Shown piece after piece: positions 11,900 through 63,900 of a DNA stretch of 64,000 bases. A program made the translations under genes and the position numbers. The DNA is taken from NCBI RefSeq assembly GCF_009914755.1, contig NC_060934.1; one strand, 5' to 3'. The notes beneath the pieces are model-generated. The model did no database searches and was not told the origin of the DNA. It worked only from the letters and a program-made list of their open reading frames with translations. The stretch comes from the human T2T-CHM13v2.0 reference genome, Homo sapiens. Within the stretch, counting starts at the first letter, position 1, and every line of letters begins with the position of its first letter.

Positions 11900-14425
<2,526 letters not shown>

Positions 14426-22705: not shown

Positions 22706-23002
22706 CTTCAGGCTGACCATCAAAGAGACATCTCAGAGTTGTCCCTAAAGGAGTCGAGAAAGTTGGGTTTTTGCCCTCGTGCAAGGACTGTCTCTGATTA
22801 GCAATTGTCCAGGCAATGTGAACTCTTTGCACGTGGCTCTCTACTCCAGGATCTCCCAAGGGCAGCCTCTGAAGGAGAGCAGCAGGTGCTGGCCCTGGGA
22901 GCCCGGAGGAGGAGCTGGGGCACAGAATCAGCAAACAGGGGCCTGAGGGCTGCCAGAGCCGACAGTGGACCCCGTTGTTTGCATTGCAAGAGAAGTGCTG
23001 AG

Positions 23003-23299
23003 GGCCGAGCTCACACCTGTAATCCCAGCACTTTGGGAGGCCGAGGTGGGTGGGTCACCTGAGGTCAGGAGTTCAAGACCAGCCTGAGCAACGTGGTGAA
23101 ACCCCGTCTCTACCAAAAATACGAAAATTAGCAGGGCGTGGTGGTGCACGCCTGTACTCCCAGTTCTTGGGAGGCTGAGGCCTGAGAATCGCTTGAACCC
23201 AGGAGACGGAGGTTGCAGTGAGCTGAGATCGCACTGCTGCACTCCAGCCTGGGCAACAGAGTGAGTCTCTGTCTTACAAAAAAAAAAAAAGAGAGAGAG
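23003..23299 (+). mobile_element. AluS SINE (small deletion near the 5' end)
   Basis: Alu dimer; TSD AGAGAAGTGCTGAG at 22989-23002 and 23300-23313. Confidence 0.94.
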
Positions 23300-24202
23300 A
23301 GAGAAGTGCTGAGAAGTTACAGGGGGAAGCTGGGACCAGGGCAAGGATGGAGCTGTTATGGTCACCAGGGACCCAAGCTGATGAGCAGCAGCGCTGAAGC
23401 TCAGCAGGAAAGCCGCTTCATTATTCTCTTTTGAAAAACACTGGGGACATGGGAGACTGCACCAGAGGAAAGGACATGCATTGGTTCTCCTCTGACTTCC
23501 AAGAGATGGTCTCAAATCACTAACGCAGACAAAATGGGACCCAGCCATCCAGAAAGACACCTGAGAAATAGAAGTCTGAGATTTGGTGAAAAGGGGACTG
23601 AGATGGGAAGCACTCCCTGGCCCAAGGTGTATGATATTCTTGGACAAGTGTCTGCTCCTGAGTGGAAACCAGGCCAGGAGCTCAGACCCAGACAAGGTGT
23701 CACTTGGGCTGGGATTATGCTGCCGTGATGCTGGCTGCTTTCTCTTAAGGGGACCTTTTTGCAGAAGACGATAGGCATCAAATCCTGGGCTCCCGCTGAC
23801 ATTTTCCGTCACGTGGCTCTTTCTCCTACCAGTCACTTCTTAATAAAGCCTGTCACCTTGAGATGGTGAGGTGCCAAGCTGCTTCTGGCCTTTCTTGCTC
23901 CCTCATGACCTTCTTTCTATCACTTGAAACCTAGCTCTGTACCCACAGCCTTTTCTCCCCAGAACCCCAAGCTGGAGAGCTTCTGGAGTGGCTGATTTTG
24001 GTAACTAAGCCACGCCACAGTCACTCTGCGGTCATCCGGAGAAAGCAGCAGCTTCATCTCGGCTTCTCTTTCCGGGTTTGTGTGTCCCTGAGCTCATCAG
24101 AGAACCCTGCTAGTTCCTGTTTGTAGTTCTTTAGAATGAGAAGAGGAACCCTATAGAGAGGTGATATGGGGGAGCCGAGATGGGCCAGCATTTTATTTCC
24201 AA

Positions 24203-28584: not shown

Positions 28585-31309
28585 CCAAATTTACAAGTTG
28601 TTTTAAGGACCAAATACCTGAAAGAGCTTGAAAAAAAAATGAGTGTGTTATCCAAATGCAAGACTCGAAACACACTATTGTTAGTGGTTTTCAGGTTGGA
28701 GCCCCGCAGGCGAATCCTCCACATATCTTTTTGCCTTTCTTGCAGCACAAAGAAGAAAGCAGGTGACAGCCATGGCTGATCTCTCCCTCCTTCTTTCAGG
28801 GAAGGGGGCCACTGGGTAGAATCTGTAGATCACAGTGACACATCCTCGGCTAGAGGAAGGAAGGGCCAGGGAATAAACACAGCAGCCCCAACACCAGCCG
28901 TCACAAACCTTCTCCCTCCCAGGAAGCCAGACACTGCCCCCGTCCTGGTGGAGGGATTCCTGTGCTCTGGCTCTGCTCCCAGCTTGGTAAGATTTTCTGC
29001 CAAAGCAACCCCATGCCTGAGCCTTCCTGTTTGCTCATCTTTGCCTCCAGCCACACCCACTCTTATTAGGCATTTAACTTTTCCTTCTGGCCAATTTCAG
29101 ATGTGTATTTCAAATTTTTCCCACTTAAGCATCTGACAAGGTAAGAATAAAGGACATAGATATTTAGAGGAAACAAGCTGCTTTTATTGGGCTCAGCAGC
29201 CTCTCATTTGTGCAGGAGTGAATTGTGGTATCTGTTACTAATTGTGTGGTTAAAATATTAGTTGGATGCCCTTGCAATTTTCACAAGCAACTGTATTCAT
29301 AATCTGTCTAAAAATGCAAGGTGGCAACCACCGGAAGTCCGCTCGAAACCCAAACCACATGTAGTGTAGACGTCATGTTTATAATCAGGCTTTAGTGTTC
29401 ATTTCACAGGGAAATTAATTATACTTAATAGTCGCAGATAGCTGCAGAATTCTAAATAAAAAATTCAAAAATGGTAAAAAAAAATTCACAAAATAACAAG
29501 AGGGAGTTTGAGTGAAGAGATAAATTTATCGCTATCTTGTTTAGGGGTCTGAGATTCAGAAAGCTCTGTCTTTCAGAGGAGCTTGATAATGACACAAAAT
29601 TATTTTAGCTGGGAGATCAGGATCATTCTGTAGGCCAAAGCAGAAGCTTCCAGTAGATAAAGTTTCAAGTGCCTGGTATTTATGTGTCCATGAATACAAC
29701 CCTAATAAAAGACTGTAAAGTTTAAAGGGATATGTAGTTGGAAGATAACTATGGTACTCATAAGAACTCGGTAGTAGAATCTATGGATGAGAGGTCTGAA
29801 ACCTTGCAAAAACAAAAAAAGAGAGAGTGAGAGATGAGGACAGAGGTGGAAAACAGAACATAGCCAGCAGGTTTGTCCTGAGAGATGGGATTCACTGGCA
29901 TCACTGAGGCCTGGAGCACTGCCTCCAGGGAAGGGGCTTTGAAGCTAGCAGCCCCCGAGGGGCCTGAAGATTGTTGTTATGTTGTTTCTGAGCCTTTTGG
30001 CTCTGGAAGCCAGACAAAATTCTGTCTGGGATGCGAGAAAGTGAGGGCTGATGGGGGCTGGCTGGGCCTCCCTGTCCAGGCCAGCGTTGCTCCCTGCCCC
30101 GTCACCTGCTATCTGCATTGCCATGCTTAGGGAGATCATTCTGGAAGCTGTCTCTGGAGCAGGAAGGAGGGAAGCAGGAAGGGGAGGCAGCGCTGGGCCC
30201 CTGGAGCTGGTGGCTCCACAGGCTCCGGTTCTTCCTCTGGCACAGCTGTGTGGGGTCACGCTCTGGCTGGGGCATCGTGAGAGTGACCTGGATGTCTAAG
30301 CCGGACTCCAGATGATGCCTGGGTGTCCACATCTATGAGCAGGGATGAGAACAGCCCCTGCTTCCCATCACCATGGGGAGGATGCAGTACAGAAGTGAGT
30401 GTGAAGCAACCACACGGCGCCCGGCACACACGGCTGTCTTCCCCAGTCATCTTAGTCTAATCTCTGAGAGGCACAGAAGGAAGAGGAAGGTTCTGTACCT
30501 TCCAGCGGGACGCCGCACCTGGCTCAGTTCTGCCCCTCTGCCTGGCCCACAGATGTCTTGAGAGGCCGTTCATGATCCTGGCTTCCCCTTCTCCACGGTG
30601 GGACCTTTACATCCCCTTGGCTTCTCCAACGTTGTGATGCCCACCAGGCGAGGGGCTGCAGTTTCCTCCTGTGGCCATGTCTCCCATTCTTCCTCCTCAT
30701 TTCTGCCCCTTACATCTGTGGCACCCTCTTCTCCCTCAACCCCATTGCCACCCTTAATCAATCTACCTTGTCCCCTAACTCTGGCTCTACTCAGCCATGA
30801 CACTCACCTGAAGCATCCTGGGCACGTCTTCATGGCTACCCTAGGTTACCTCTGAAGACTCTTGGACACCCATTGCCAACTCCCAGGGGCTGTTTCCAGT
30901 GCTGCTGTCTTTGCTGGAGAAAATATGTAACACACTTATGCGATGTATCCCACAAAGGTGACTCTGGTCTCCCCAGACTTTCACGGCAGTTTGGCCTCCT
31001 CACCCATGTCGAGCCTGGCCCCCACCATGGCTGGAAGAGAGTGGGGGTGGGTGATGGGTGGCACATCAGGCAGGCAAGGGAAGGGAGGAGGAAGAAGACA
31101 ATCCCTGTTGCTCTCATCGTTTAGGCTTCCTCTTCGTCCACCCTGTGGCTGGTGAGAACAGGGCACGGCCCCGAGAGAAGCTCTAAAAGTACTTGTTGCA
31201 TAAATAAACACACACTTTCTCTAGAGTAAAACTGAACATATGATCTCCCTTGTGAAACAAAACTTTGCCATAATCCTTTTGCTGTTTACGATGCACTCAT
31301 TCTCTTCTC

Positions 31310-32170
31310 TTTATTTCATTAATGAATTCATTTGACAAATGACTATTGAGATATTTCTGTTCTGGTCTGCAGAATAAAGCAGTGAACAAGATGGTAAACT
31401 ACCTGTTTCTGGTTGGAATAGGGCAGGATACCAAAAATAAACAAACAGAAGAAATGAAGACATCAATGATGAGGGTGAAGTGTTGTGGGGCCGGAGAGCA
31501 TGAGGGGTGGGTGACTGGGAGCACTTCAGGTGGAAAGGGACTGAGTTGACATTTGGTGGGGGCAGGTTTTTGAGTGGCTGCAGTGAGCTGGTGATAAAGA
31601 TCTCCTCATCACACCCACACATCCAATTAGTAACAGTGTCAGTTTGCTCCTGTGCCCATCTCATTGCCACCGCCCTGGTCCACGGCCCCATATTCTCACC
31701 TGGGTTCCTACCACAGCCTGTAGGGTGGGCCCTCTGCTCAGTCGCTGACCCTCCCATCCCACTTGCTTCTGGCAGAGCGCGCTTCCAAAACACAGATCTG
31801 TTCTGGCCCCGCCCCTGCTTACGGCCCTTTTTGGCCTCTGTGGCCCTCAGAATCAAGTCCAGATGCTCTGGCCTGGCGCATATGCACGATGGGGACCTGC
31901 TGGGGCCACCCAAATGGGCCCTTGCAGCAGTGAGACTGAGCCACATGCAGGTCCTCAGATCACTGTGGGCTCCGTCCCTGCCCTGGCTGTAGCACATGCT
32001 GCTCCTGCCCCCTCCTGTGTTCTGCTCCACCCCAGTCTCACCCTGACATTCCCATATCTCCTGCTTTTACCCCTCTTTGGTGTTTGCTTATCACTGCACC
32101 CCAGAACCTCATCCAGTCCCTGGCATGTAGAGGACCCTCACTGGTTCTTTGAGAAATGCATAAATTCAGT
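31310..32170. mobile_element. L2 fragments (31310-31520 minus; ~31600-32170 plus)
   Basis: L2 3'-end motifs ttcattaatgaattcatttgacaaat and cctggcatgtagaggaccctca; highly diverged. Confidence 0.55.
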
Positions 32171-32294
32171 GTTGGTTCCTGCGAAGAGTCTTCCTTGAAA
32201 ATGCTTTCAGGAGGCTGTGCTGTCCCTGGCAGGGCAAGGCGCTTTGTAGCAGGATTTTCCCCTCTTATGGTGGTTCTTTAGAAAGGCCATTACT

Positions 32295-33375: not shown

Positions 33376-33599
33376 TAGTGGTTCTCAACTGGGGGTGCTT
33401 TTGCTTCCCCCTTGCCCGAGGGGATGTGGGCAATGTCTAGAGACATTTTCACTTGTCACAACTGGGGTACTGGTGGTACTGGCATCTCGTGGGTAGAGCT
33501 CAGGGTTGCTGCCAAATCTCCTCCAATGCACAGGGCAACTTTCAACAACCGAGAGTCATCAGCCCAAAATGCCAGTAGCACCAGTGTTGAGAAATGGTG
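33376..33599 (+). mobile_element. MER20 hAT-Charlie DNA transposon
   Basis: tagtggttctcaactggggg…gttgagaaatggtg; 8-bp TSD CTCTAGAA at 33368-33375 and 33600-33607. Confidence 0.9.
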
Positions 33600-33739
33600 C
33601 TCTAGAATGTACAAGAATTGCTTGCACATCTCCTCCAATGCACAGGGCAACTTTCAACAACCAAGAGTCATCAGCCCAAAATGCCAGTAGCACCAGTGTT
33701 GAGAAACGGTGCTCTAGAACGTACAAGAATTGCTTGCAC
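33516..33739. repeat. 112-bp tandem duplication (2 copies)
   Basis: 33516-33627 vs 33628-33739, 3 mismatches. Confidence 0.95.
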
Positions 33740-37761: not shown

Positions 37762-38110
37762 CCTCTCATTTTCTCTCTCTCTATCTCTGTTTCTCTCTCT
37801 CTGTGTCTCTCTTTCTCTCTCCTTCTCTGTCTCTCTCTCTCTCTATGTCTTCATCTTTCCCTTTCCCCCTCCATCCTTCCAACTCTCTCTACTTCTCTCT
37901 CTACCTCTTTCTCTCCACCTCTCCATTTCCTTCTCTCTCCCCACCTCTCCGTTTGTCTCTCTCCCCCTCCATATCTCTCTTGCCTCCTCTCCCTCTCTCT
38001 CTTTCTCTTCCTCTCCATCTCTCCCTCTCTCTCTCCCCCTCTTCATCTATCTCTCTCTCTCTCCCTCTTGCTCCCCTCCCTCCTTTTCCCTCTCCTCTCC
38101 ATCTCTCAGT
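37762..38110. repeat. CT-rich polypyrimidine low-complexity tract, probably within an old MLT1 LTR (~37625-38200)
   Basis: ~350 bp nearly all C/T on the + strand. Confidence 0.9.
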
Positions 38111-41967: not shown

Positions 41968-42303
41968 TAAGTATTTCTTTTGTGTTAGTTTCTGAAACAT
42001 AATGTCTGGGACATTCAAGGAAAGAATGTCATCCTTCTTAAAGGTTTAAATTCTAAGCTAAAAAAACCTTTTGTTTCCTTTTGAGACCTCTGGCCACCCA
42101 TGCCACAATGATGCAGTCTCGAAGACAATGGTTTTGAAGGACATTCTTAATGGCAAACTTTAAATGAAGTCGATCATTGGCAGCTCAATGACAATGCCCA
42201 TATGTTATGTCCTTTTCTTCTTAACAAGAACAAAAGGCCACAGCCAGAACAATTAGTCATATAGGAGGGATGAGATGACATTTTTACTCCCGAACTTTTC
42301 TGG

Positions 42304-42310
42304 TATAAAA
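42304..42310 (+). promoter_or_regulatory. NPS: TATA box of NPS
   Basis: Canonical TATAAAA(G) 91 nt upstream of the NPS ATG; implies a TSS near 42335. Confidence 0.75.
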
Positions 42311-42394
42311 GGGCCACCCAATGAGGGTCTGACAGTAAGTGTGAGAAATTTGGCAATAAAACCACCTATCTTTACAGATTTTGGGAAGTCCAAA

Positions 42395-42402
42395 ATGATT
42401 AG
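42395..42402 (+). CDS. NPS: NPS coding exon 1 (ATGATTAG, 8 nt)
   Basis: caaaATG (A at -3) followed by donor AG|GTAAAA; 112-nt intron 1. Confidence 0.93.
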
Positions 42403-45400
42403 GTAAAAGGCTACGTTTTTCTGCAAAGAAAAATGTTGCATTTTCATATGCTGTTTTACTTATTCTTGCCTACTTGAGACTAAATCTTGATTGTACTTTT
42501 TTTCTACTTTGCAGCTCAGTAAAACTCAATCTCATCCTAGTTCTGTCGCTGTCCACAATGCATGTGTTTTGGTGTTATCCAGTTCCATCTTCTAAGGTAA
42601 GGATTTGCCTCCGTTGTGGATATTTAAATAGATGACTAGAATGGTAAATTATGTAAATTCCAAATACTTTCAAGGAATATGTGACAGAAAAGTAATTTCC
42701 TTTATTATTAGAGTTCTCAATGGGAAAAAGTCAGCAGATTGATGACATTAGTAAAAGAAAATATTAGTGTGACAAGTAACACTGGACTATATTCAAATTT
42801 GTTTTGAATTATTTAGGGTTGGCTCCTGCAAAGGGAAATATTCATCTCAATCTAAAGTAATTTTTTTGCCAATGGCAATTTATTTATTCCACATGCATTC
42901 ATTCATAATCAAAGTGAACACTTAACCATGGAAACTATATTAAAAATAAAGTGGTCATTTTTCAAAAACAGTTTAATTTTTTCAGATGCAGAATATAGAT
43001 AAAACGTTAGATCTAAATAAAATATCACATAAAATATTAATTCATATATTTATTAGAGAATATTGATTGAACTCCTACGTTCATTGAACTGTTCAAGACA
43101 TTCAGAAAATAAATATCTTTCTTTGGAATATTTAATATTATTTCTACATAATATTTCAGTTGCCTTTATGTCAATATTTTGTTTATAATTTTAAAATATC
43201 TTTTGTCATTGACGGCATTTTGAACTTGAACTTTTTTTCACTAAAACGTAACCTGTCACATTATAATGACTGAAATCAATGTGATTTATGAAACTACTTT
43301 TAGGATAAAGGGATGTCGCATAAATCCTAAGTGATAAATATATGTCTGAACATAATGATCTAGTTATTTATATTATTGGCCTTTTCACTAATCTTTGCAT
43401 CTGTCATTTTTCTATTTCTTGTTTATTTAATATAGCTTCTTTTTTTTGGTTTCCTCCTATGAGCATTCAACACTAATTTAGTCATCAATTCTATAAGACA
43501 CCACATTGATCAAGCTGATGAGTCACAATCCATATACTGGTATATTTTCTCAAGTGTCTTCCTAATTACTTTCTGTTCTTTCCCCAAAGGTTTACTCATG
43601 ACATTTCTGTTGAATAACAGGCTCTTCTCTGTAGCTTTTTTAAAAGAAATTAAGAATGTACTTTGTTCTAAAATACTTATGAGACTTCCTTGTCCATAAA
43701 TGAAATGTTTCTCCTTTCACTGCATTTTCCTTATTTCTACTTTTGCACGTGACAGTTTTGTTCTTGTTATTACCTAGTTCCGTAGTAAGAGTGTGGATGC
43801 TATTCATGCCAATTTGATTGCTTAGGGTGAATGATTATGCAGGCAGACGACACATAGGCTTTTATAATATTTGTTGCGAACTTCACTGAGTCCATTAACC
43901 AGGCAAATATACAATCTTATTATGTTAATGAGTCTGCCCTGGCAAGGGCTGCCTTCGACGATCAGCAAAGTGCATCAGTGTCTTTTTAGGGATGTTTCAG
44001 GAATCTCATAACCAGAACTGATACATTCCTTTTGCAGTATAAAGGTGGCATCATGAGTATTTCTGGAAAGAACTGGCTTGCTTCCCTTCCTGCAATGACT
44101 CAGAGGCCCTTCCCTGCTGGGGATTTTAAATAGAAGGCGTTCTCTCTATCATGTTTAGATTTCCTCTGTTAGCACACGGAAAAATACATAGTGGATGTCC
44201 GACTAAGAGTGTTTGATTGGTTTTCTCATGACCAATATTTCTGAAACTCTCTGACCAAACTCTCTGAGATGAAAAAGGGGGGAAAAAAGCCCATTTTTTT
44301 TCCCCAGAGGCCAGTGGGAATGATTTGTCTGGGTTGCACTGAATCTTCAGTAAACCACCCACGCGTGGGTGAAGAATTACAGGGAACGCTTTATGCACTC
44401 TGGCCCCGTTTCCACTTCCATACAGTAACCTGAGACCACACTTGTTTTCCTGCACCAAGATAGAAAAAAAAGTATGAGTTTTACCTTGTAGTATGTCTCT
44501 TTATTGATAAGAAAAGCACTCAGTTTCCTTTTCCTCTTGTAGTTCTAGTATAGTTGAGAAACCTAAACTTAGAGTCAGATGCCTTGAAAATAATAGTATC
44601 TACTTCACAGAGTTTTGTTTAGGAGTAGGACAAGATGATGCCCATAATGCAAGCAGCACACAGATCATGGGTAAATCTGTGCTTTGCATTATTGGTGAAA
44701 TTTGTATTAGCATCTTATCAGTGTGTTATAATTCCTCTGAAACCATGCAAGAGGGAAAACACAACAAGTGTTGATGATTCGTACCCAAGCCCTGGGTCAG
44801 AGCTGCCTCTTGGAATCTCCAGCCCTGTCACATGGGGCATGCACCTTTGGTCTTGTACTTAGTTTTTTTATCTGCAAAATATGGGGTTGAACTTCAGGTT
44901 CCTGAAGGCCAGTTTGAACTCTAAGATTGCAGATCTGTTTCTTCCACCACTAAGCGCCCTACACTCTCCTACATTATCCAGCCTCGAGCCAGTGATGAGG
45001 ACCTGAACTAAAGTCAGAAGTTGAAGATGCCATTGTTCAAGTATCAAGACATCCTTATGGGGAAACTTGGCAAATGGCCCAGGACAGGCCCCAGGAGAAA
45101 AGTGGTTCTGATTGACACCTAGAGTCTGATCCTCATGGGTTGTTTTTCTAAGTGAATTTCAAAAACAATTCCCAGGGCTGATTAGTGCTGCTTGAAATAT
45201 TCTTTTTAAAATAACAGCAACAAGATAACTTATGTGTAGTGCATGATGTAAATACGGAATAGCAGCAAGTATATAAGTAGTGTAAAAATTAGACAAGTGG
45301 GTAGATCACCCCAAATAATATTTTGTATCTAGATAAAGTAGATATTGTGTTTTAGCAAAACTTCTGCCTTTAAGATGATTGATATATTGGATTTATCGCC

Positions 45401-45666
45401 ATAAGATTTTGAAAATTGTTACTGTTGAAATATACTTTTAACCCTAAGGCTGTATTCTCTTTCTCCTCACCCATCTGAATTGCCAGGTGTCTGGAAAATC
45501 TGATTACTTTCTCATTCTGCTGAACAGCTGCCCAACCAGATTGGACAGGAGCAAAGAACTAGCTTTTCTAAAGCCAATTTTGGAGAAGATGTTTGTGAAA
45601 AGGTCCTTTCGCAATGGAGTTGGCACAGGGATGAAAAAAACTTCCTTTCAAAGAGCAAAATCATGA
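42395..45666 (+). CDS. NPS: Neuropeptide S precursor, 89 aa, join(42395..42402,42515..42596,45487..45666)
   Basis: Spliced translation [89 protein letters not shown]; 8+82+180=270 nt; GT-AG introns; signal peptide, KR site and the known 20-aa NPS peptide. Confidence 0.98.
42515..42596 (+). CDS. NPS: NPS exon 2 (signal peptide), 82 nt
   Basis: Acceptor tttttttctactttgcag|, donor AAG|GTAAGG; encodes [27 protein letters not shown]. Confidence 0.96.
44550..44930 (+). mobile_element. MIR fragments in NPS intron 2
   Basis: agagtcagatgcc…ataatagtatctacttcacagagttttgt; agttttttatctgcaaaat. Confidence 0.5.
45487..45666 (+). CDS. NPS: NPS exon 3 coding part (pro-region, KR, mature NPS at 45604-45663)
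   Basis: Acceptor …tgaattgccag| after a pyrimidine tract; phase 0; ends [23 protein letters not shown]. Confidence 0.98.
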
Positions 45667-46549
45667 CTAAGTGTGCAAAGGACTCGGGGAATTAATCTAA
45701 CTGTAGAGTGTGACTGACGTACTCAAAGTCCATCGTCTCTTTATCATTGAGTGTTGGCATGCTCTCTATTCTCAAATATCTTTCCTCTCCTGACTGGTAC
45801 AGAGTAAATTGAGTAAAAAAAGAAAAAAAATGTAAACATGTCTCAAACCTGTCTCAAACTTCCACTTGTGAGAGAAAAAACAATTTATGTGGTCCATTAG
45901 TAACTTTTTCCTGAATGGGATGGACACTTTTGCTTTGGTTTTAACTTGGCCAGAAAGCATGAGCATGTTGACAGTCATCACGATAGTATGATTTTTTTTT
46001 TCCTGCCTATAATATCATAACACGAATACTGTGATATTTGTTTTTCTTTTTAATACCGTTTTCTCAAATGACTTAACAGGCTCAATTCTTGGGGTGGGGG
46101 GATGTGCTATTTCTGTTTCTAAGGGGCTTGTGAAGTTAACCAAAATTAAGGTGAATGGTACAGCTGTATCAATTGATTAATTAATTGATACCAAGAACAA
46201 ACATCCCTGGAGCACTCTAGATGTAATTCTTGTCTCCCTTTTCCTATTCCAAATATACTTAGCTATAGGGTGTTGTTTTGTTGTCTTGTCTTGGAAATTT
46301 GTTGCCTTTTAAAATCTTTAAGCACAGAAATGCTGCCAGTAACAACAACAACAGAGAGACTGAGAGTGCCCTGTGTTGTCAGGGCAGCCATTTGGAAACC
46401 TGTTCCCCAAACTATGCTGATTAATGCCCTCTCCTTTCCCCCATCCTTCCAGGAAAGACTGCCCACTCTTTGCATTGAAACTCCTGACACTCCTTTTTTA
46501 AAAGGATAATGCGACATTGGTTGACGTGTTATTTCAAATGCATAATGTT

Positions 46550-46555
46550 AATAAA
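46550..46555 (+). terminator. NPS: Probable NPS polyadenylation signal AATAAA (3'UTR ~0.9 kb)
   Basis: First AATAAA I found after the stop codon. Confidence 0.65.
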
Positions 46556-49309
46556 TCTGTTCACGCATATTGGATTCTGCAGCACACTAAGGGTGTTCGC
46601 TGTAAGCCACACACAGCTCCTAGACTGGGGGCAGCGGAAGCCTTAGGATGACCTGTCCTTAGTCATCAGCTTCAGATAGAAACACATCAGAAAACAGTAC
46701 TCATGGTGAGCTGGTCTCACAGTAATCAGCTAGGTTCACACAAACAAATCGGTTTCTACACAAAGCAGTCTTTACACATGCCATATTGTTGGTGATGTGC
46801 CAAGTGCCCACCGAAAGAAACAGAGGCCCCTAAAGGTCTTCTGTGATTTGTTGCTGACTTCTACGAAAACAAGTGGTTTCATGGTTGTGGTGTATGCTTA
46901 TTCTGCTCTTGTTACACAGATTCATCCTAAGTATTGGGGGATGAAGTAACATAGATCATGCAAATACAAGTTATGGGAAGCAGCATTTATTTTAAGGATC
47001 AGGGAACTTCAGGGAAACACATTTTGGGAAGCACAGAGGAGCTTGGTAGAAGTAGAAGCCATCAGGCAGCATCCCTGCCCTCCGGGGTCCTTTGCGCCCT
47101 TCTAGCTACGTTTTCTTCCCTGCAAACCGGATGGTCTGCAAGACCTTTGTTTCTGCTCTCCAATAACTTCCATCTGCCTGGGGCTTTGTGTTGCTCTATA
47201 GGGCCTCACAACATCAGGTCCAGCACCTCCCGTGGGCCAGCATTTTGTTTTCCCTTTGGGGTCAGGTATCCACTGCTGGTTCTCTCTGCAGAAGCCAGAG
47301 ATGCAGACAGGGTCATGTGTGTGTGACTGCAGCATGAGCTGTGGCAGGGCAGCCCCCTAAGAAGGGGTATGAGAGAGCAAGAAGAGGAGGACATTGCTCA
47401 TTCTGCTGCATCACCCACTGCACCCTCACTGTTCCCTGGATCCAAAAGGACACACGTGGCCTTCCGGTCTGGTCCTTCTTTCAGCAGATATTCCATGTAT
47501 AGAAAAGCCAGATATACCCTTCAATACTTTTTAGAAAGTCTGCTTAAACAAATTCATATTTTCTTTCTAAGATCACCTCCTTCACATCAGTGTTCCCCTA
47601 AAGACACACACACTCACAGGAACACACAACAGAAGGGGCAGCTATGGGCTGATTTTCTAGTTTCAAAGTCATGGGCTTGAGTCTTGATGCAAACATGGCC
47701 TTTGGGCATCTGCGAGGACAAGCAGGTGGGGATGCAGGGCGCGGGCGTCACTGGGAGAGGAAGAGCTAGCTCAGGATGGGCGTCCTCCACCTGCTCCTTT
47801 GCTCTCCCTCGTCTGCTCATGGGCCTGGTCCTTTCTCGATCATGGTCACATTAGCAGTGGCCCTGGCATCTTCCCCCACCAGCAGCCACATAATAGGTCA
47901 TACCAGCCCACTGCCATCCCTTCAGCAGCACCGTGGCCCCTGTCTCTGTTCCCAGGGTGTGTGGAGTGGGGCAGGTGGGAGACTTCTGTGCAGGTGTTGA
48001 AATGAGAGATCAGCCCAGCAGTGCTCCAGGTGTTGGAGTAGGATCTGAAGGCATTTCCCTTATCCATTAATGACATCCAGTTACTTCCTGCTTGATGGCC
48101 ACACAAGTGGCTGAAGTCATTGAGATTTTAAAGAAATATTTGAAATCAGAAACAAGCAAAACCCTTTGAAGTGGATGTACCTTTAATTCTTTTTTAACCC
48201 CAAACAATCATTCCGTTTCCCACTTCTCTATATGTATGTGGACACAGATGCAGTGAAGTACTCAGGCAATCCTGTGTCCCTCGGTTTTCTGCCGCTATGG
48301 CCTCTGCCTTTGTTCCTATGAGGTGGCTTTAAGAATCTAAGCCATCAGCCAGTGGCAGCACCACTCTCCTTACCCTCGGCCCTGAAACTGGAGTTCTCTT
48401 GGAGCATCTGCAAATGCGGCAAAGGGCTCTGCAGCTCCGTGAGGTTTCAAGGGTAACATGCAAAGTAATTCCAATAAAATGTGGAAAATCTGACAGAAGC
48501 TTGTCAGGGAAGTTGGCATTTCTTATCTGCCTAACGTTATTGGCAGGGAAGCTAATTAGATAGGCTGATAGGCGTTATTTACTCCTGCGGAGTAGAAAAC
48601 AAGTTACTTCATTAATAAGCTCATGGTTAAGTGTGGTGTAAATGGGGCATCTTGTGTACAGAAAAGATTGCTATTTCAGGAGAATCTTCCTAATTTTCTA
48701 TTATTTGCATTTATATGGATTGGCTGGAATAATAAAACACCAAAAACATAATTGGAAAAATTCACTTCCCACTTCTAGAGCTAAAATATCATTTTAACGT
48801 CAGGGGGGAAAAGGCCTATGAAAAACTATTTGCACTCCAAAAATCATAGCCGATGAAAAGCTGGTAGGAAGGAGTATTTTCTTTCTGAAGAAAAATTGCG
48901 CCTCTTGCTAAAGTTTTAGGAATAAAGCGTTTAAAAGCAAGGCCTGCTCTCAAGCCTGCATTGGCAAGTAGGAAAGTGGCTTGGGGTGACGGGGGCAGTG
49001 ATGAGAGAGGGCCCTGGTGACCCTCTACCGTCCAACACCAGGGGTGCTGCTGGGGGCCTGAATTTCACCTTTAGATTTGGATGCATCGGGCAAAGCTTTG
49101 GAAGCCCTTGGACTGCAAGCATCCCAAGGGATGAATAATCTTTTAGTCAATTTTGGCCAACTCTATCTGAATGTGATTGATCTTCATATTCTATCTGGAG
49201 AGATTTTATTGGAGAGGAAAGAAAAGAACTCATGAGGGCCATGGATACCTGGAGAGAGAGAATGCTGGTGTGGAGGAGAGGAGTGCAAAAGGAAGCTTAG
49301 GAGGCCAGA

Positions 49310-60440: not shown

Positions 60441-60649
60441 TCTTGGCATAGCACTCCCCCCATCCCCTGAATCACCATCAGCAGTAGCAGCAGCAGCAGC
60501 AGCATCACAATCCTGGAAACCATGTTAGGTCTCTCTTTTGGGGACTCTAGTTATTGACCTTCCTGAGATCCAACAGTTTAGTGTCTTGACTCCATGGCCA
60601 TGACCTTGCCTGTCTGCTTGTGATATAGAGGTATGCTTTGTGTTTCTTA

Positions 60650-60956
60650 CTTTCTTTTTCTTTTTCTTGAGACAGGGTCTTGCTCTGTTGGCCGGGTTGG
60701 AGTGCAGTGGTGCAATCTCGGCTCACTGTAATCCCCGCCTCCTGGGCTCAAGCAATTCTCGTGCCTCAGCCTCCCGAGTAGCTGGGATTACAGGTGTACA
60801 CCACCGCACCCCACTAATTTTTTTTTTTGTGTTTTTAGTGGGGACAGGGTTTTGCTATGTTGGCCAGGCTGGTCTTGAACTCCTGGCCTCAAGTGATCTG
60901 CCCACTTCAGCCTCCCAAAGTGCTAGGATTACAGGCATGAGCCACCATGCTTGGCT
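60650..60956 (-). mobile_element. Alu SINE (J/early S)
   Basis: Reverse Alu; TSD TRTGCTYTGTGTTTC. Confidence 0.93.
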
Positions 60957-63900
60957 TGTGCTCTGTGTTTCACACTCCCAACATCACACACAGGAGTCAA
61001 CATAAAATATGACAAGAAATATAATTCTCAAATGGTGTCTTACGTAATTCCAGTTGAATGACTCAGTAGCTCTATAAACACTCCACTAACAAATTAGGGG
61101 CTCATTTGGATATTTACCATTTTGTAGTTATAATCCTAAATGATGGAAATTGGAAATTGGCCTTACTTGCTGACTGTAGTCACCTCTGTATTTTTCTCTC
61201 ATTCTGCTTCGCACCGGGCTCTAATACTGCATAGCCCAAGAGAAAATCCAGGACTTTTCATTAGGACCCCAGACAGTCAAGGAGCATATTTTACTTGAAG
61301 CAGCTACTCCCAGGTGCAAATCTGATGACTTTATTTGATGATTATATATTTTAAATAGCCCTGGCTTGGAAAATCACTTGCCATTATGAGACCCCTCCAT
61401 CTGTGTATTTTCATGAAGAAAACACTGTTAAAAGCTTTTAAATTTTCAAAATATAATTTGGTTTAATGAGAGAAAAGAAAGTCTTTCTACTTGGTGAAAT
61501 GGTCTGAGACAGATGTTGGAACAAGGTATGCTAAAAATTTTTTTAATAGATTAGAAAAATCTATTCCATTCCCACTTTCCTCCTCTCATCTATAGTAAGA
61601 TATTCAGTTGCTGGAAGGAAGGAAAGCAATTGTAAGATTTAAACTACATATTTTTAAAAATCATAAGGTTTTAGAATTCTTATAGTAGAGTGGTTGTGTG
61701 GGATGTCTGTTTACTTTCAGCTAAATTTTCTTTGCTTAAGTTATGTGCACGTTTCTTTTTCCACGTTTAATTTTAGAATGGTGCTCAAGTTTGCAGAAAA
61801 TATTTACACTAAAAAAGTAAGCATATTGCACTATTATTAACCCCAAGTCTTGTTGACACTCATAACACTTCTTTGTGAGCACACAATCCATAATTCCAAC
61901 CTTTGTGAAATTGTAGCCACAGCCCTCTCAAGCTGGTTTGGGGTAGGTTTGGGGATTTGGTGCAGGAGAAACATCAAGACATCATAATTCTTGTTCCTCA
62001 GATATAGGCATAAAGGTTTTTCATTAGGGAGCATCAAGAGATACATTTGGCTTGTTGCATGGTAACCAGTTCCTTGATGAAGGAAGACAGTTGATCTACT
62101 CATGTACAAGGATCTGTTGTGCGCCTCCTCTACTCTATATCACAGTATTCAAAGAAGAAGGAGGAGATGGGGGAGAAGAAGAAGATGAATCCCTGTCCGT
62201 CAGCAGTTGGCGCTGAGTAGGAGGCATATTAAAATAGTGCATGAGCTGAGTAAGTGAACCAATAAAGAAAGAAATGTGACAACTCACCCTCATTTGGCTC
62301 CATGCTCCAAAAAGGGACTCTCTTACAAGCAGAGGGAGAAGCATCCCCTCCGAGGGTGGCTTGACCACACATGCCAGTTGGACTCTCATTGTTGCTGGCT
62401 CAGAGAGATGTTTCCTGTGTATTTCAAAGCAACTTTGATCCCAGTAGACTCTCTCTTTTTCTTTTGTCTCCCCTTCTTTATTCTAATTTGAAATATCACT
62501 TGATGTGAGCTCTGGAAACAGAACAGTTTTTGAGAAGCTTTTGGCTCAATGTGCTTGAGGAAGAACCACAGGAAATAAGCAACATCTGGTTCTAAGGAAG
62601 ACCAAACAGCATGTGTTGGGCTGGGGTGGGCTATCGGTCAAGACTCCTTCAATGGCAGGTGGCGAGAGCCAAGTTCAATGGAGTTTCTGAAACACAGAGC
62701 ATGTTCTCAGACATGGAGGAAGGAGTGTGGTCGGGCCTCAGAAGCCACTGATCTCAGGCCCAGCTTCAGCCAGACTCTGTCTGGAAAGTTCTCCTCCATT
62801 CTCTCTCTGTTGGCTTCTCTCTTCTCCCACTCAACAGAACAGCTTCCTTCGTGTAGCTGGACCTGGGGATACCTTGTGCTCATCTAACAGCTTCAGCGGC
62901 TCAGGGAGAAGGAAACTCCCTGAGAAGGAAACCTGTGCTCTGAGTCCCTGGTATTTGGGAAACTCTGGTGGAAGGATTCTGACTGGCCAGGCTCCAGGCG
63001 GGCACTCTCTCCTGGCTCAATCAACTGTGGCCAGGAAAGACCCTTCTGTGTGAACACAGTGTATGGCATGCTAAGTCTCATTACATATGAATCTCATTTA
63101 TGAATCACAACCACAGAACCATGATGTGGAGGATCAGCCTCAGGAGGGAGCCATTCATGGAAGACAATCCCATGGAAGTCCACTGAGGGTGAAGTGTCCA
63201 CTGGACTTCTCTTCAAAGACAGGCTTTCTCTGTGTCTTCCAGAGAGTCTATAAAACATTTAAACACCAGGAAGAATCGGTAGGAAAGATAAATACGTCTG
63301 CCTGTTGCTAGAATGTCATGTGGACTGGACTGGGTCTTCAGGATTGATCATTCTTGATGTCTAACCACCTTCCCTTAGCTTTTTGGAATAGGACAGGTGG
63401 CCTGAGTGACAGGAGATGGTGGGTATCACCTTCACAATGACCCCTGGGTGGGCCATCTTTCCTTAAAAAAAGCATATTTTCAGGGAGAGGAGGCAGCACC
63501 CAGCATTGCTTGCTTCAGGGAATATGGCTGTACCTGGATTCCAGGCCATGCAGAACATTAGGCACATTAGGCATGGGTAGTCACTTCCATGGGGCGATTA
63601 GGAAATCCTGGGGCAATGTTACAGCTAAATATATCCACCAAAACCTCATAAGGACACATTTATTTCTAAATTTCAATATGGTTCACATATTTCTTGCTAG
63701 GTGCAAGTTTTATGCCAGTTTTCTAGCCTGCAAAAATATAGCAAAATGCAAAATATAGCACTTGCAATGGATTTTTTCATACACTGTATTCTCAATTTTT
63801 ATTATATGTCCTTATAATAACCATGTCCCAAACATGGTTCCTATAAATACATAAATGTCTTAACATAGTTTTTAGTGGCAAGCCAATATAAATACATTAC

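What the first reader, a model, noticed from the sequence alone, without database searches (positions are those of the whole stretch)
42304..46575. Hidden three-exon neuropeptide gene (NPS) missed by the ORF track
Seen: TATAAAA, an 8-nt first coding exon, GT-AG introns of 112 and 2890 nt and a 270-nt spliced frame. It encodes a hydrophobic N-terminus, a pro-region, a dibasic KR and a C-terminal 20-mer [20 protein letters not shown], followed by AATAAA ~0.9 kb after the stop. Known: this is neuropeptide S, ligand of the GPCR NPSR1 (arousal/anxiolysis). It is the main biological system in the window, but it is already described.
Basis: partly seen in the sequence, partly recalled or inferred. 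Interest (0 to 1): 0.8.

Follow-up and report, generated by a model that had tools for sequence, protein, structure and literature searches.

The report
Human neuropeptide S gene, already annotated
This stretch is the ordinary, already described human gene for the neuropeptide S precursor, a small secreted protein whose last 20 residues are the arousal-promoting, anxiety-lowering brain peptide NPS.

Summary
These are TATAAAA at 42304, ATG at 42395, an 8-nt first coding exon, GT-AG introns of 112 and 2890 nt, a 270-nt spliced frame of 89 codons with TGA at 45664-45666, and AATAAA at 46550.

The 59 residues read from exon 3 match Pfam PF14993 (Neuropeptide S precursor protein) at 121.5 bits, E 1.2e-35, against a cut-off of 27. 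The C-terminal 20-mer behind the Lys-Arg pair is printed letter for letter as human NPS in 21 held papers (passages read). The junctions equal those of RefSeq NM_001030013.2 in the hub's table. Exon 3 occurs once in the window's own 3.1-Gb genome.

The motifs alone are weak evidence. TATAAAAG occurs 12 times and AATAAA 141 times in the window. The family match and the peptide identity carry the case.

The gene was "hidden" only because its largest open piece is 59 codons, below the tool's default 60-codon cut.

Verdict: real, correctly read, already known. Interest is low.

The parts
42304..42310 (+). TATA box (TATAAAA), 31 nt before the annotated transcript start
   Evidence: The position fits a TATA-dependent RNA polymerase II promoter (general knowledge). 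The motif alone is weak: TATAAAAG occurs 12 times in the window. Function is inferred, not tested.
42335..42402 (+). Exon 1: a 60-nt 5' UTR without any ATG, then 8 coding nt (ATGATTAG) from 42395
   Evidence: The exon limits are those of the hub's RefSeq row NM_001030013.2. The donor is tag|GTAAAA.
42403..42514 (+). Intron 1, 112 nt, GT...AG, with a strong polypyrimidine tract before the acceptor
42515..42596 (+). Exon 2, 82 nt: the rest of the signal peptide (hydrophobic core LNLILVLSL) and the start of the pro-region
   Evidence: The hydropathy maximum of 2.6 is at residues 7-15. This short piece gave no Pfam hit on its own.
42597..45486 (+). Intron 2, 2890 nt, GT...AG, phase 0
   Evidence: ORFs inside it are short and were not examined further.
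45487..45603 (+). Exon 3, pro-region (39 codons) ending in the Lys-Arg processing pair at 45598-45603
   Evidence: The pro-region alone, 38 residues, scores 65.9 bits and E 2.7e-18 against PF14993, so it is conserved in the family.
45604..45663 (+). Mature neuropeptide S, 20 codons. The Val6 codon GTT at 45619-45621 is the site I infer for rs4751440.
   Evidence: The 20-mer alone scores 41.3 bits and E 1.3e-10 against PF14993. It appears verbatim as human NPS in 21 papers (passages). The codon was read. The Val6Leu variant (G/C) is described in PMC8146834 (passages). The placement is inferred: GTT to CTT is the only single G-to-C change of that codon giving Leu.
45664..45666 (+). Stop codon TGA
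45667..46567 (+). 3' UTR, 901 nt, with AATAAA at 46550-46555, 12 nt before the annotated end
   Evidence: The end coordinate comes from the hub's RefSeq row.

Best explanation
The stretch is the human NPS gene, a single-copy, three-exon RNA polymerase II gene on the + strand. It encodes the 89-residue neuropeptide S precursor.

Shown here: the exon-intron structure, the open spliced frame, membership of the Pfam NPS precursor family, identity of the C-terminal 20-mer with published human NPS, and a single copy in this genome.

Inferred from general knowledge of neuropeptide precursors and from the literature, not tested here:
- The hydrophobic N-terminus directs the precursor into the secretory pathway and is cut off. 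I recall the cut at about residue 23 for human. A 23-residue signal peptide is stated for chicken in PMC8507198.
- A prohormone convertase cuts after the only Lys-Arg pair (residues 68-69). This releases the 20-mer, whose own C-terminus is the end of the protein, so it needs no C-terminal trimming or amidation.
- The peptide is released by a few brainstem neurons and activates NPSR1. That GPCR couples to Gs and Gq and raises cAMP and Ca2+ (PMC8146834).
- The reported effects are arousal with reduced anxiety.

This assembly carries the common, fully potent Val6 form.
For: -: every signal is at the stated coordinate, and the 270-nt frame has no internal stop.
- PF14993 Neuropeptide_S at 121.5 bits, E 1.2e-35, cut-off 27, covering profile positions 8-65 of 65.
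- the pro-region alone (65.9 bits) and the 20-mer alone (41.3 bits) each pass the cut-off.
- the 20-mer occurs verbatim in 21 papers; the passages name it human NPS, agonist of GPR154/NPSR.
- (PMC8146834, passages): a single-copy peptide in a precursor of under 90 residues, present in all tetrapods, with a conserved N-terminal Ser and seven identical N-terminal residues. NPSR1 couples to Gs and Gq. Expression is in a few brainstem nuclei.
- (PMC8507198, passages): human NPS has 3 exons. Phe2, Arg3, Asn4 and Gly5-Val6-Gly7 are the functionally important residues, and all are present here.
- exon 3, as protein and as DNA, matches only its own place in the 3.1-Gb genome.
- Hub annotation: NM_001030013.2 has the same exons and coding parts.
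Against: Nothing found speaks against it. The limits are these.
- No transcript data were available to me, so the junctions rest on splice consensus, frame continuity and the hub's RefSeq row.
- No signal-peptide predictor was available, so the cleavage site is not computed.
- The exon 2 piece alone (27 residues) gave no Pfam hit. That is expected, because at most seven profile positions lie outside exon 3.
- The whole 89-residue protein was not sent to any search, because joined sequence may not be typed.
- TATAAAAG and AATAAA are common in the window and prove nothing by themselves.
Confidence: 0.98

Rival explanations
1. The locus is an NPS-derived pseudogene or a non-expressed relic, and the functional copy lies elsewhere.
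For: None found. I considered it only because short spliced frames can survive in relics.
Against: The frame is intact and all four splice sites are canonical. Exon 3 has exactly one match in the whole genome, as protein (5 candidates scored, 1 match) and as DNA (1 candidate, 1 match), so there is no other copy to be the functional one. The hub's RefSeq row lists it as the protein-coding NPS gene.
Confidence: 0.01
2. The spliced frame is a chance assembly of GT/AG sites and short open frames in AT-rich intergenic DNA.
For: TATAAAAG (12 in the window) and AATAAA (141 in the window) are frequent. An 8-nt first coding exon carries almost no information by itself.
Against: The Pfam match at E 1.2e-35 on exon 3 and the exact identity of the 20-mer to a purified, pharmacologically characterised peptide cannot arise by chance.
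Confidence: 0.005

Closest known systems
Human NPS (neuropeptide S precursor; RefSeq NM_001030013.2; Pfam PF14993)
   Same: Everything tested is the same: exon coordinates, the 89-residue frame, the family match, the 20-mer, and the Val6 allele.
   Different: Nothing. This is that gene itself, in the T2T-CHM13 assembly.
Tetrapod NPS orthologues (e.g. chicken NPS, KX595274, PMC8507198)
   Same: Three coding exons, an N-terminal signal peptide, and a single 20-residue NPS at the very C-terminus. [quoted passage not shown]
   Different: The chicken precursor has 99 residues against 89 here. The C-terminal half of the peptide varies between species.
NG peptide precursors of invertebrate deuterostomes, and CCAP of protostomes (PMC5860471)
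   Same: The Asn-Gly motif is shared. The Branchiostoma peptide SFRNGV-amide equals the first six residues of NPS. The receptors are orthologous to NPSR1 (passages).
   Different: Those precursors carry several peptide copies, and some carry a C-terminal neurophysin domain (for the sea urchin precursor). The human precursor holds one copy, and the peptide is the end of the protein, so nothing follows it. Pfam reported only PF14993 on exon 3.

Membership tests
Neuropeptide S precursor (Pfam PF14993) | Sequence match to the family profile above the curated gathering score | tested here: met
   121.5 bits against a cut-off of 27, E 1.2e-35, profile positions 8-65 of 65; the pro-region and the 20-mer each pass alone.
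Neuropeptide S precursor (Pfam PF14993) | A single 20-residue peptide at the C-terminus that starts with Ser and has the N-terminal seven residues SFRNGVG invariant in tetrapods | tested here: met
   Searches give the peptide. The criterion comes from PMC8146834 (passages). The peptide is verbatim as in PMC13507374 and PMC5860471.
Neuropeptide S precursor (Pfam PF14993) | A basic processing pair directly before the peptide | tested here: met
   Lys-Arg at residues 68-69, the only adjacent basic pair before the peptide. Cleavage itself was not tested here.
Neuropeptide S precursor (Pfam PF14993) | An N-terminal signal peptide on a small precursor (under 90 residues) | tested here: inconclusive
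   The length of 89 residues is met. The N-terminus has one Lys and then a hydrophobic core with a Kyte-Doolittle mean up to 2.6. No signal-peptide predictor was available, so the cleavage site was not computed.
Neuropeptide S precursor (Pfam PF14993) | A three-exon gene structure, as stated for human and chicken | tested here: met
   (canonical GT-AG, frame kept). PMC8507198. The hub's RefSeq row.
Neuropeptide S precursor (Pfam PF14993) | The peptide activates NPSR1 | not testable with these tools
   From the literature only (PMC8146834; PMC13507374).

The most novel reading that the evidence does not exclude
The pro-region (about residues 24-67) may be more than a spacer. It is almost as well conserved in the family profile as the peptide: 65.9 bits over 38 residues, against 41.3 bits over 19 aligned residues for the peptide. 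It could therefore have a function of its own, such as a sorting or chaperone role for the very basic peptide, or a second secreted product. I searched no paper on this point, so I cannot say whether it has been addressed in print.
Probability: 0.1. Interest if true: 0.45.

Novelty: already known. Interest (0 to 1): 0.05.

Why it matters
It adds nothing to biology. NPS, its precursor, its receptor NPSR1 and the Val6Leu variant are in print (PMC8146834), and the gene is in RefSeq.

Tried and rejected
- Solved structures. Neither the 59-residue exon-3 product nor the 20-mer matched any PDB chain meaningfully. The only row was a chance tubulin match at E 1.7, and the 20-mer gave no match. So no solved chain with the NPS sequence is in that copy. 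A 2026 paper still models the NPS-NPSR complex with AlphaFold2 (PMC13507374).
- Cryo-EM literature. The search for 'neuropeptide S' + 'cryo-EM' + 'NPSR1' gave 2 papers, both general pharmacology guides. I saw only the listing.
- Rfam over the whole window at gathering thresholds: 0 matches.
- Bacterial-type promoter and terminator scan of 42000-42700: 3 promoter-like sites against 2.4 +/- 1.6 expected. It is irrelevant for a human gene and not above chance.
- Other ORFs in 42000-46800 on both strands: 13 ATG-ORFs of 40-84 residues. None was examined further. The 50-residue antisense ORF at 45512-45664 overlaps the conserved coding exon and is most simply a by-product of it. That is an inference.
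- CpG-island scan. Only one 500-bp window in the 64 kb, 1101-1600, reaches GC 0.5 and observed/expected 0.6. There is none at the NPS promoter (GC 0.40, 8 CpG in 800 bp), which fits a TATA-type tissue-restricted promoter. That is also an inference.
- Reinscheid 2007 (PMC1868679) is not held.
- I did not use the large protein-database searches or structure prediction, because the Pfam match already decides the question.

Full report
**Observation**

I read 42241-42720 and 45421-46680 and recomputed the features by script from the window file.

- TATAAAA lies at 42304-42310, 31 nt before the annotated start at 42335.
- The ATG is at 42395. The 60-nt 5' UTR holds no upstream ATG.
- The first coding exon piece is 8 nt (42395-42402), followed by tag|GTAAAA.
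- A polypyrimidine tract and an AG end at 42514, so intron 1 is 112 nt.
- Exon 2 is 42515-42596, followed by aag|GTAAGG.
- An AG lies at 45485-45486, so intron 2 is 2890 nt and in phase 0.
- The exon 3 coding part is 45487-45666 and ends in TGA.
- The joined frame is 270 nt, 89 residues, with no internal stop.
- AATAAA at 46550-46555 lies 884 nt after the stop and 12 nt before the annotated end. It is the only + strand copy in the 3' UTR.

**Is it more than chance?**

The regulatory motifs are not. TATAAAAG occurs 12 times in the window (3.3 expected from shuffles) and AATAAA 141 times (65 expected). Only their positions are suggestive.

The coding frame is. The 59 residues of exon 3 match Pfam PF14993, 'Neuropeptide S precursor protein', at 121.5 bits and E 1.2e-35. 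The curated cut-off is 27, and the match covers profile positions 8-65 of 65. The 27 residues of exon 2 gave no hit on their own. That is expected, since at most seven profile positions remain for them.

Split in two, the 38-residue pro-region scores 65.9 bits (E 2.7e-18) and the 20-mer scores 41.3 bits (E 1.3e-10). Each is above the cut-off.

**Identity**

The C-terminal 20-mer behind the Lys-Arg pair occurs verbatim in 21 papers of the held library. I read two sets of passages.

- PMC13507374 gives it as the 'human primary sequence' of NPS. It names NPS as the 20-residue agonist of the former orphan GPR154, now NPSR.
- PMC5860471 gives it as human NPS. It places NPS in the bilaterian NG-peptide/CCAP family, whose receptors are paralogous to vasopressin/oxytocin receptors.

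The review PMC8146834 (passages) says several things about the system.

- NPS is a single-copy peptide in a precursor of fewer than 90 residues.
- It is found in all tetrapods and is absent from fish.
- It has an invariant N-terminal Ser and seven identical N-terminal residues.
- NPSR1 couples to Gs and Gq.
- Precursor mRNA is limited to a few brainstem nuclei.

PMC8507198 (passages) states that human NPS, like chicken NPS, has 3 exons. It names Phe2-Arg3-Asn4 and Gly5-Val6-Gly7 as the functionally important residues. All are present here.

**Copy number and surroundings**

The window's own 3.1-Gb genome holds exactly one match to exon 3. This is true as protein (5 candidates scored, 1 match, 100% identity, at the window's own place) and as 1081 nt of DNA (1 candidate, 1 match). 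No paralogue or processed copy was found at the sensitivity of these two searches.

- The window has no Rfam family at gathering thresholds.
- It has no CpG island at the NPS promoter.
- Within 42000-46800 there are only short ORFs on either strand.
- Window-wide, 19 stop-to-stop frames reach 130 residues or more. Several read like repeat-derived or low-complexity frames, and I did not follow them.

**Why it looked hidden**

Under the tool's default settings, the longest open piece of the gene is the exon-3 frame. It counts from a GTG that happens to be its first codon and is 59 residues long, below the default 60-residue listing cut. The other two coding pieces are 8 and 82 nt. So any prokaryote-style ORF listing will miss the gene. 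This is a property of the method, not of the gene.

**Mechanism**

Shown here: the gene structure, the intact frame, family membership, peptide identity and a single copy.

Inferred from established knowledge of neuropeptide precursors and from the papers cited:
- co-translational entry into the secretory pathway through the hydrophobic N-terminus (one Lys, then a core with Kyte-Doolittle mean up to 2.6);
- removal of the signal peptide, at about residue 23 by my recollection for human. A 23-residue signal peptide is stated for chicken;
- cleavage after the only Lys-Arg pair by a prohormone convertase. The peptide's C-terminus is the end of the protein, so no further trimming or amidation is needed;
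- release by a few brainstem neurons and activation of NPSR1.

**Allele**

PMC8146834 describes rs4751440 (G/C). It turns Val6 into Leu6, lowers agonist potency 10-20 fold, and may derive from Neandertals. The Val6 codon in the window is GTT at 45619-45621. This assembly therefore carries the common Val form. I inferred the placement of the variant at 45619 from the codon, not from a variant table.

**Structures**

No PDB chain in the 2026 copy matches the exon-3 product or the 20-mer. A 2026 paper still relies on AlphaFold2 models of the complex. The search for cryo-EM work gave only two general guides, and I saw only the listing.

**Verdict**

The gene is already known and annotated.

The only reading with any novelty that the evidence leaves open is a function of its own for the conserved pro-region. 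I rate that as unlikely, and I made no literature search on it.

Noticed in passing
window 45619-45621: The codon for Val6 of mature NPS is GTT. By inference from the codon, this is the site of rs4751440 (G/C, Val6Leu), which lowers potency 10-20 fold and is said to be of possible Neandertal origin (PMC8146834). This assembly carries the Val allele.
   Followed up: partly
window 45487-45603: The NPS pro-region alone scores 65.9 bits against PF14993. That is about as much per residue as the bioactive peptide, so the pro-region is well conserved. Its role was not looked up.
   Followed up: partly
window 33516-33739: A tandem duplication of a 112-bp unit, 2.0 copies, 97% matches. It lies about 8.6 kb upstream of NPS and is not explained.
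   Followed up: no
window 37772-38107: A long imperfect TC/CT-rich low-complexity tract. It produces three overlapping Ser/Leu/Pro-rich open frames of 167-222 residues on the + strand. These are most simply artefacts of composition.
   Followed up: no
window 30001-32000: The most GC-rich 2-kb stretch of the window (GC 0.545), with stop-free frames of 149-251 residues on both strands at 31311-32198. No 500-bp window there met the CpG-island criteria.
   Followed up: partly
window 22928-23839 (-), 60604-61005 (+), 13473-13898 (+): These stop-to-stop frames contain stretches that I recognise from memory as translations of Alu or L1 repeats. They overlap or adjoin the stretches the hub lists as masked. 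They were not checked with any tool.
   Followed up: no
window 45512-45664 (-): A 50-residue ATG-ORF antisense to the NPS coding exon 3. It is probably a by-product of the conserved sense frame.
   Followed up: no
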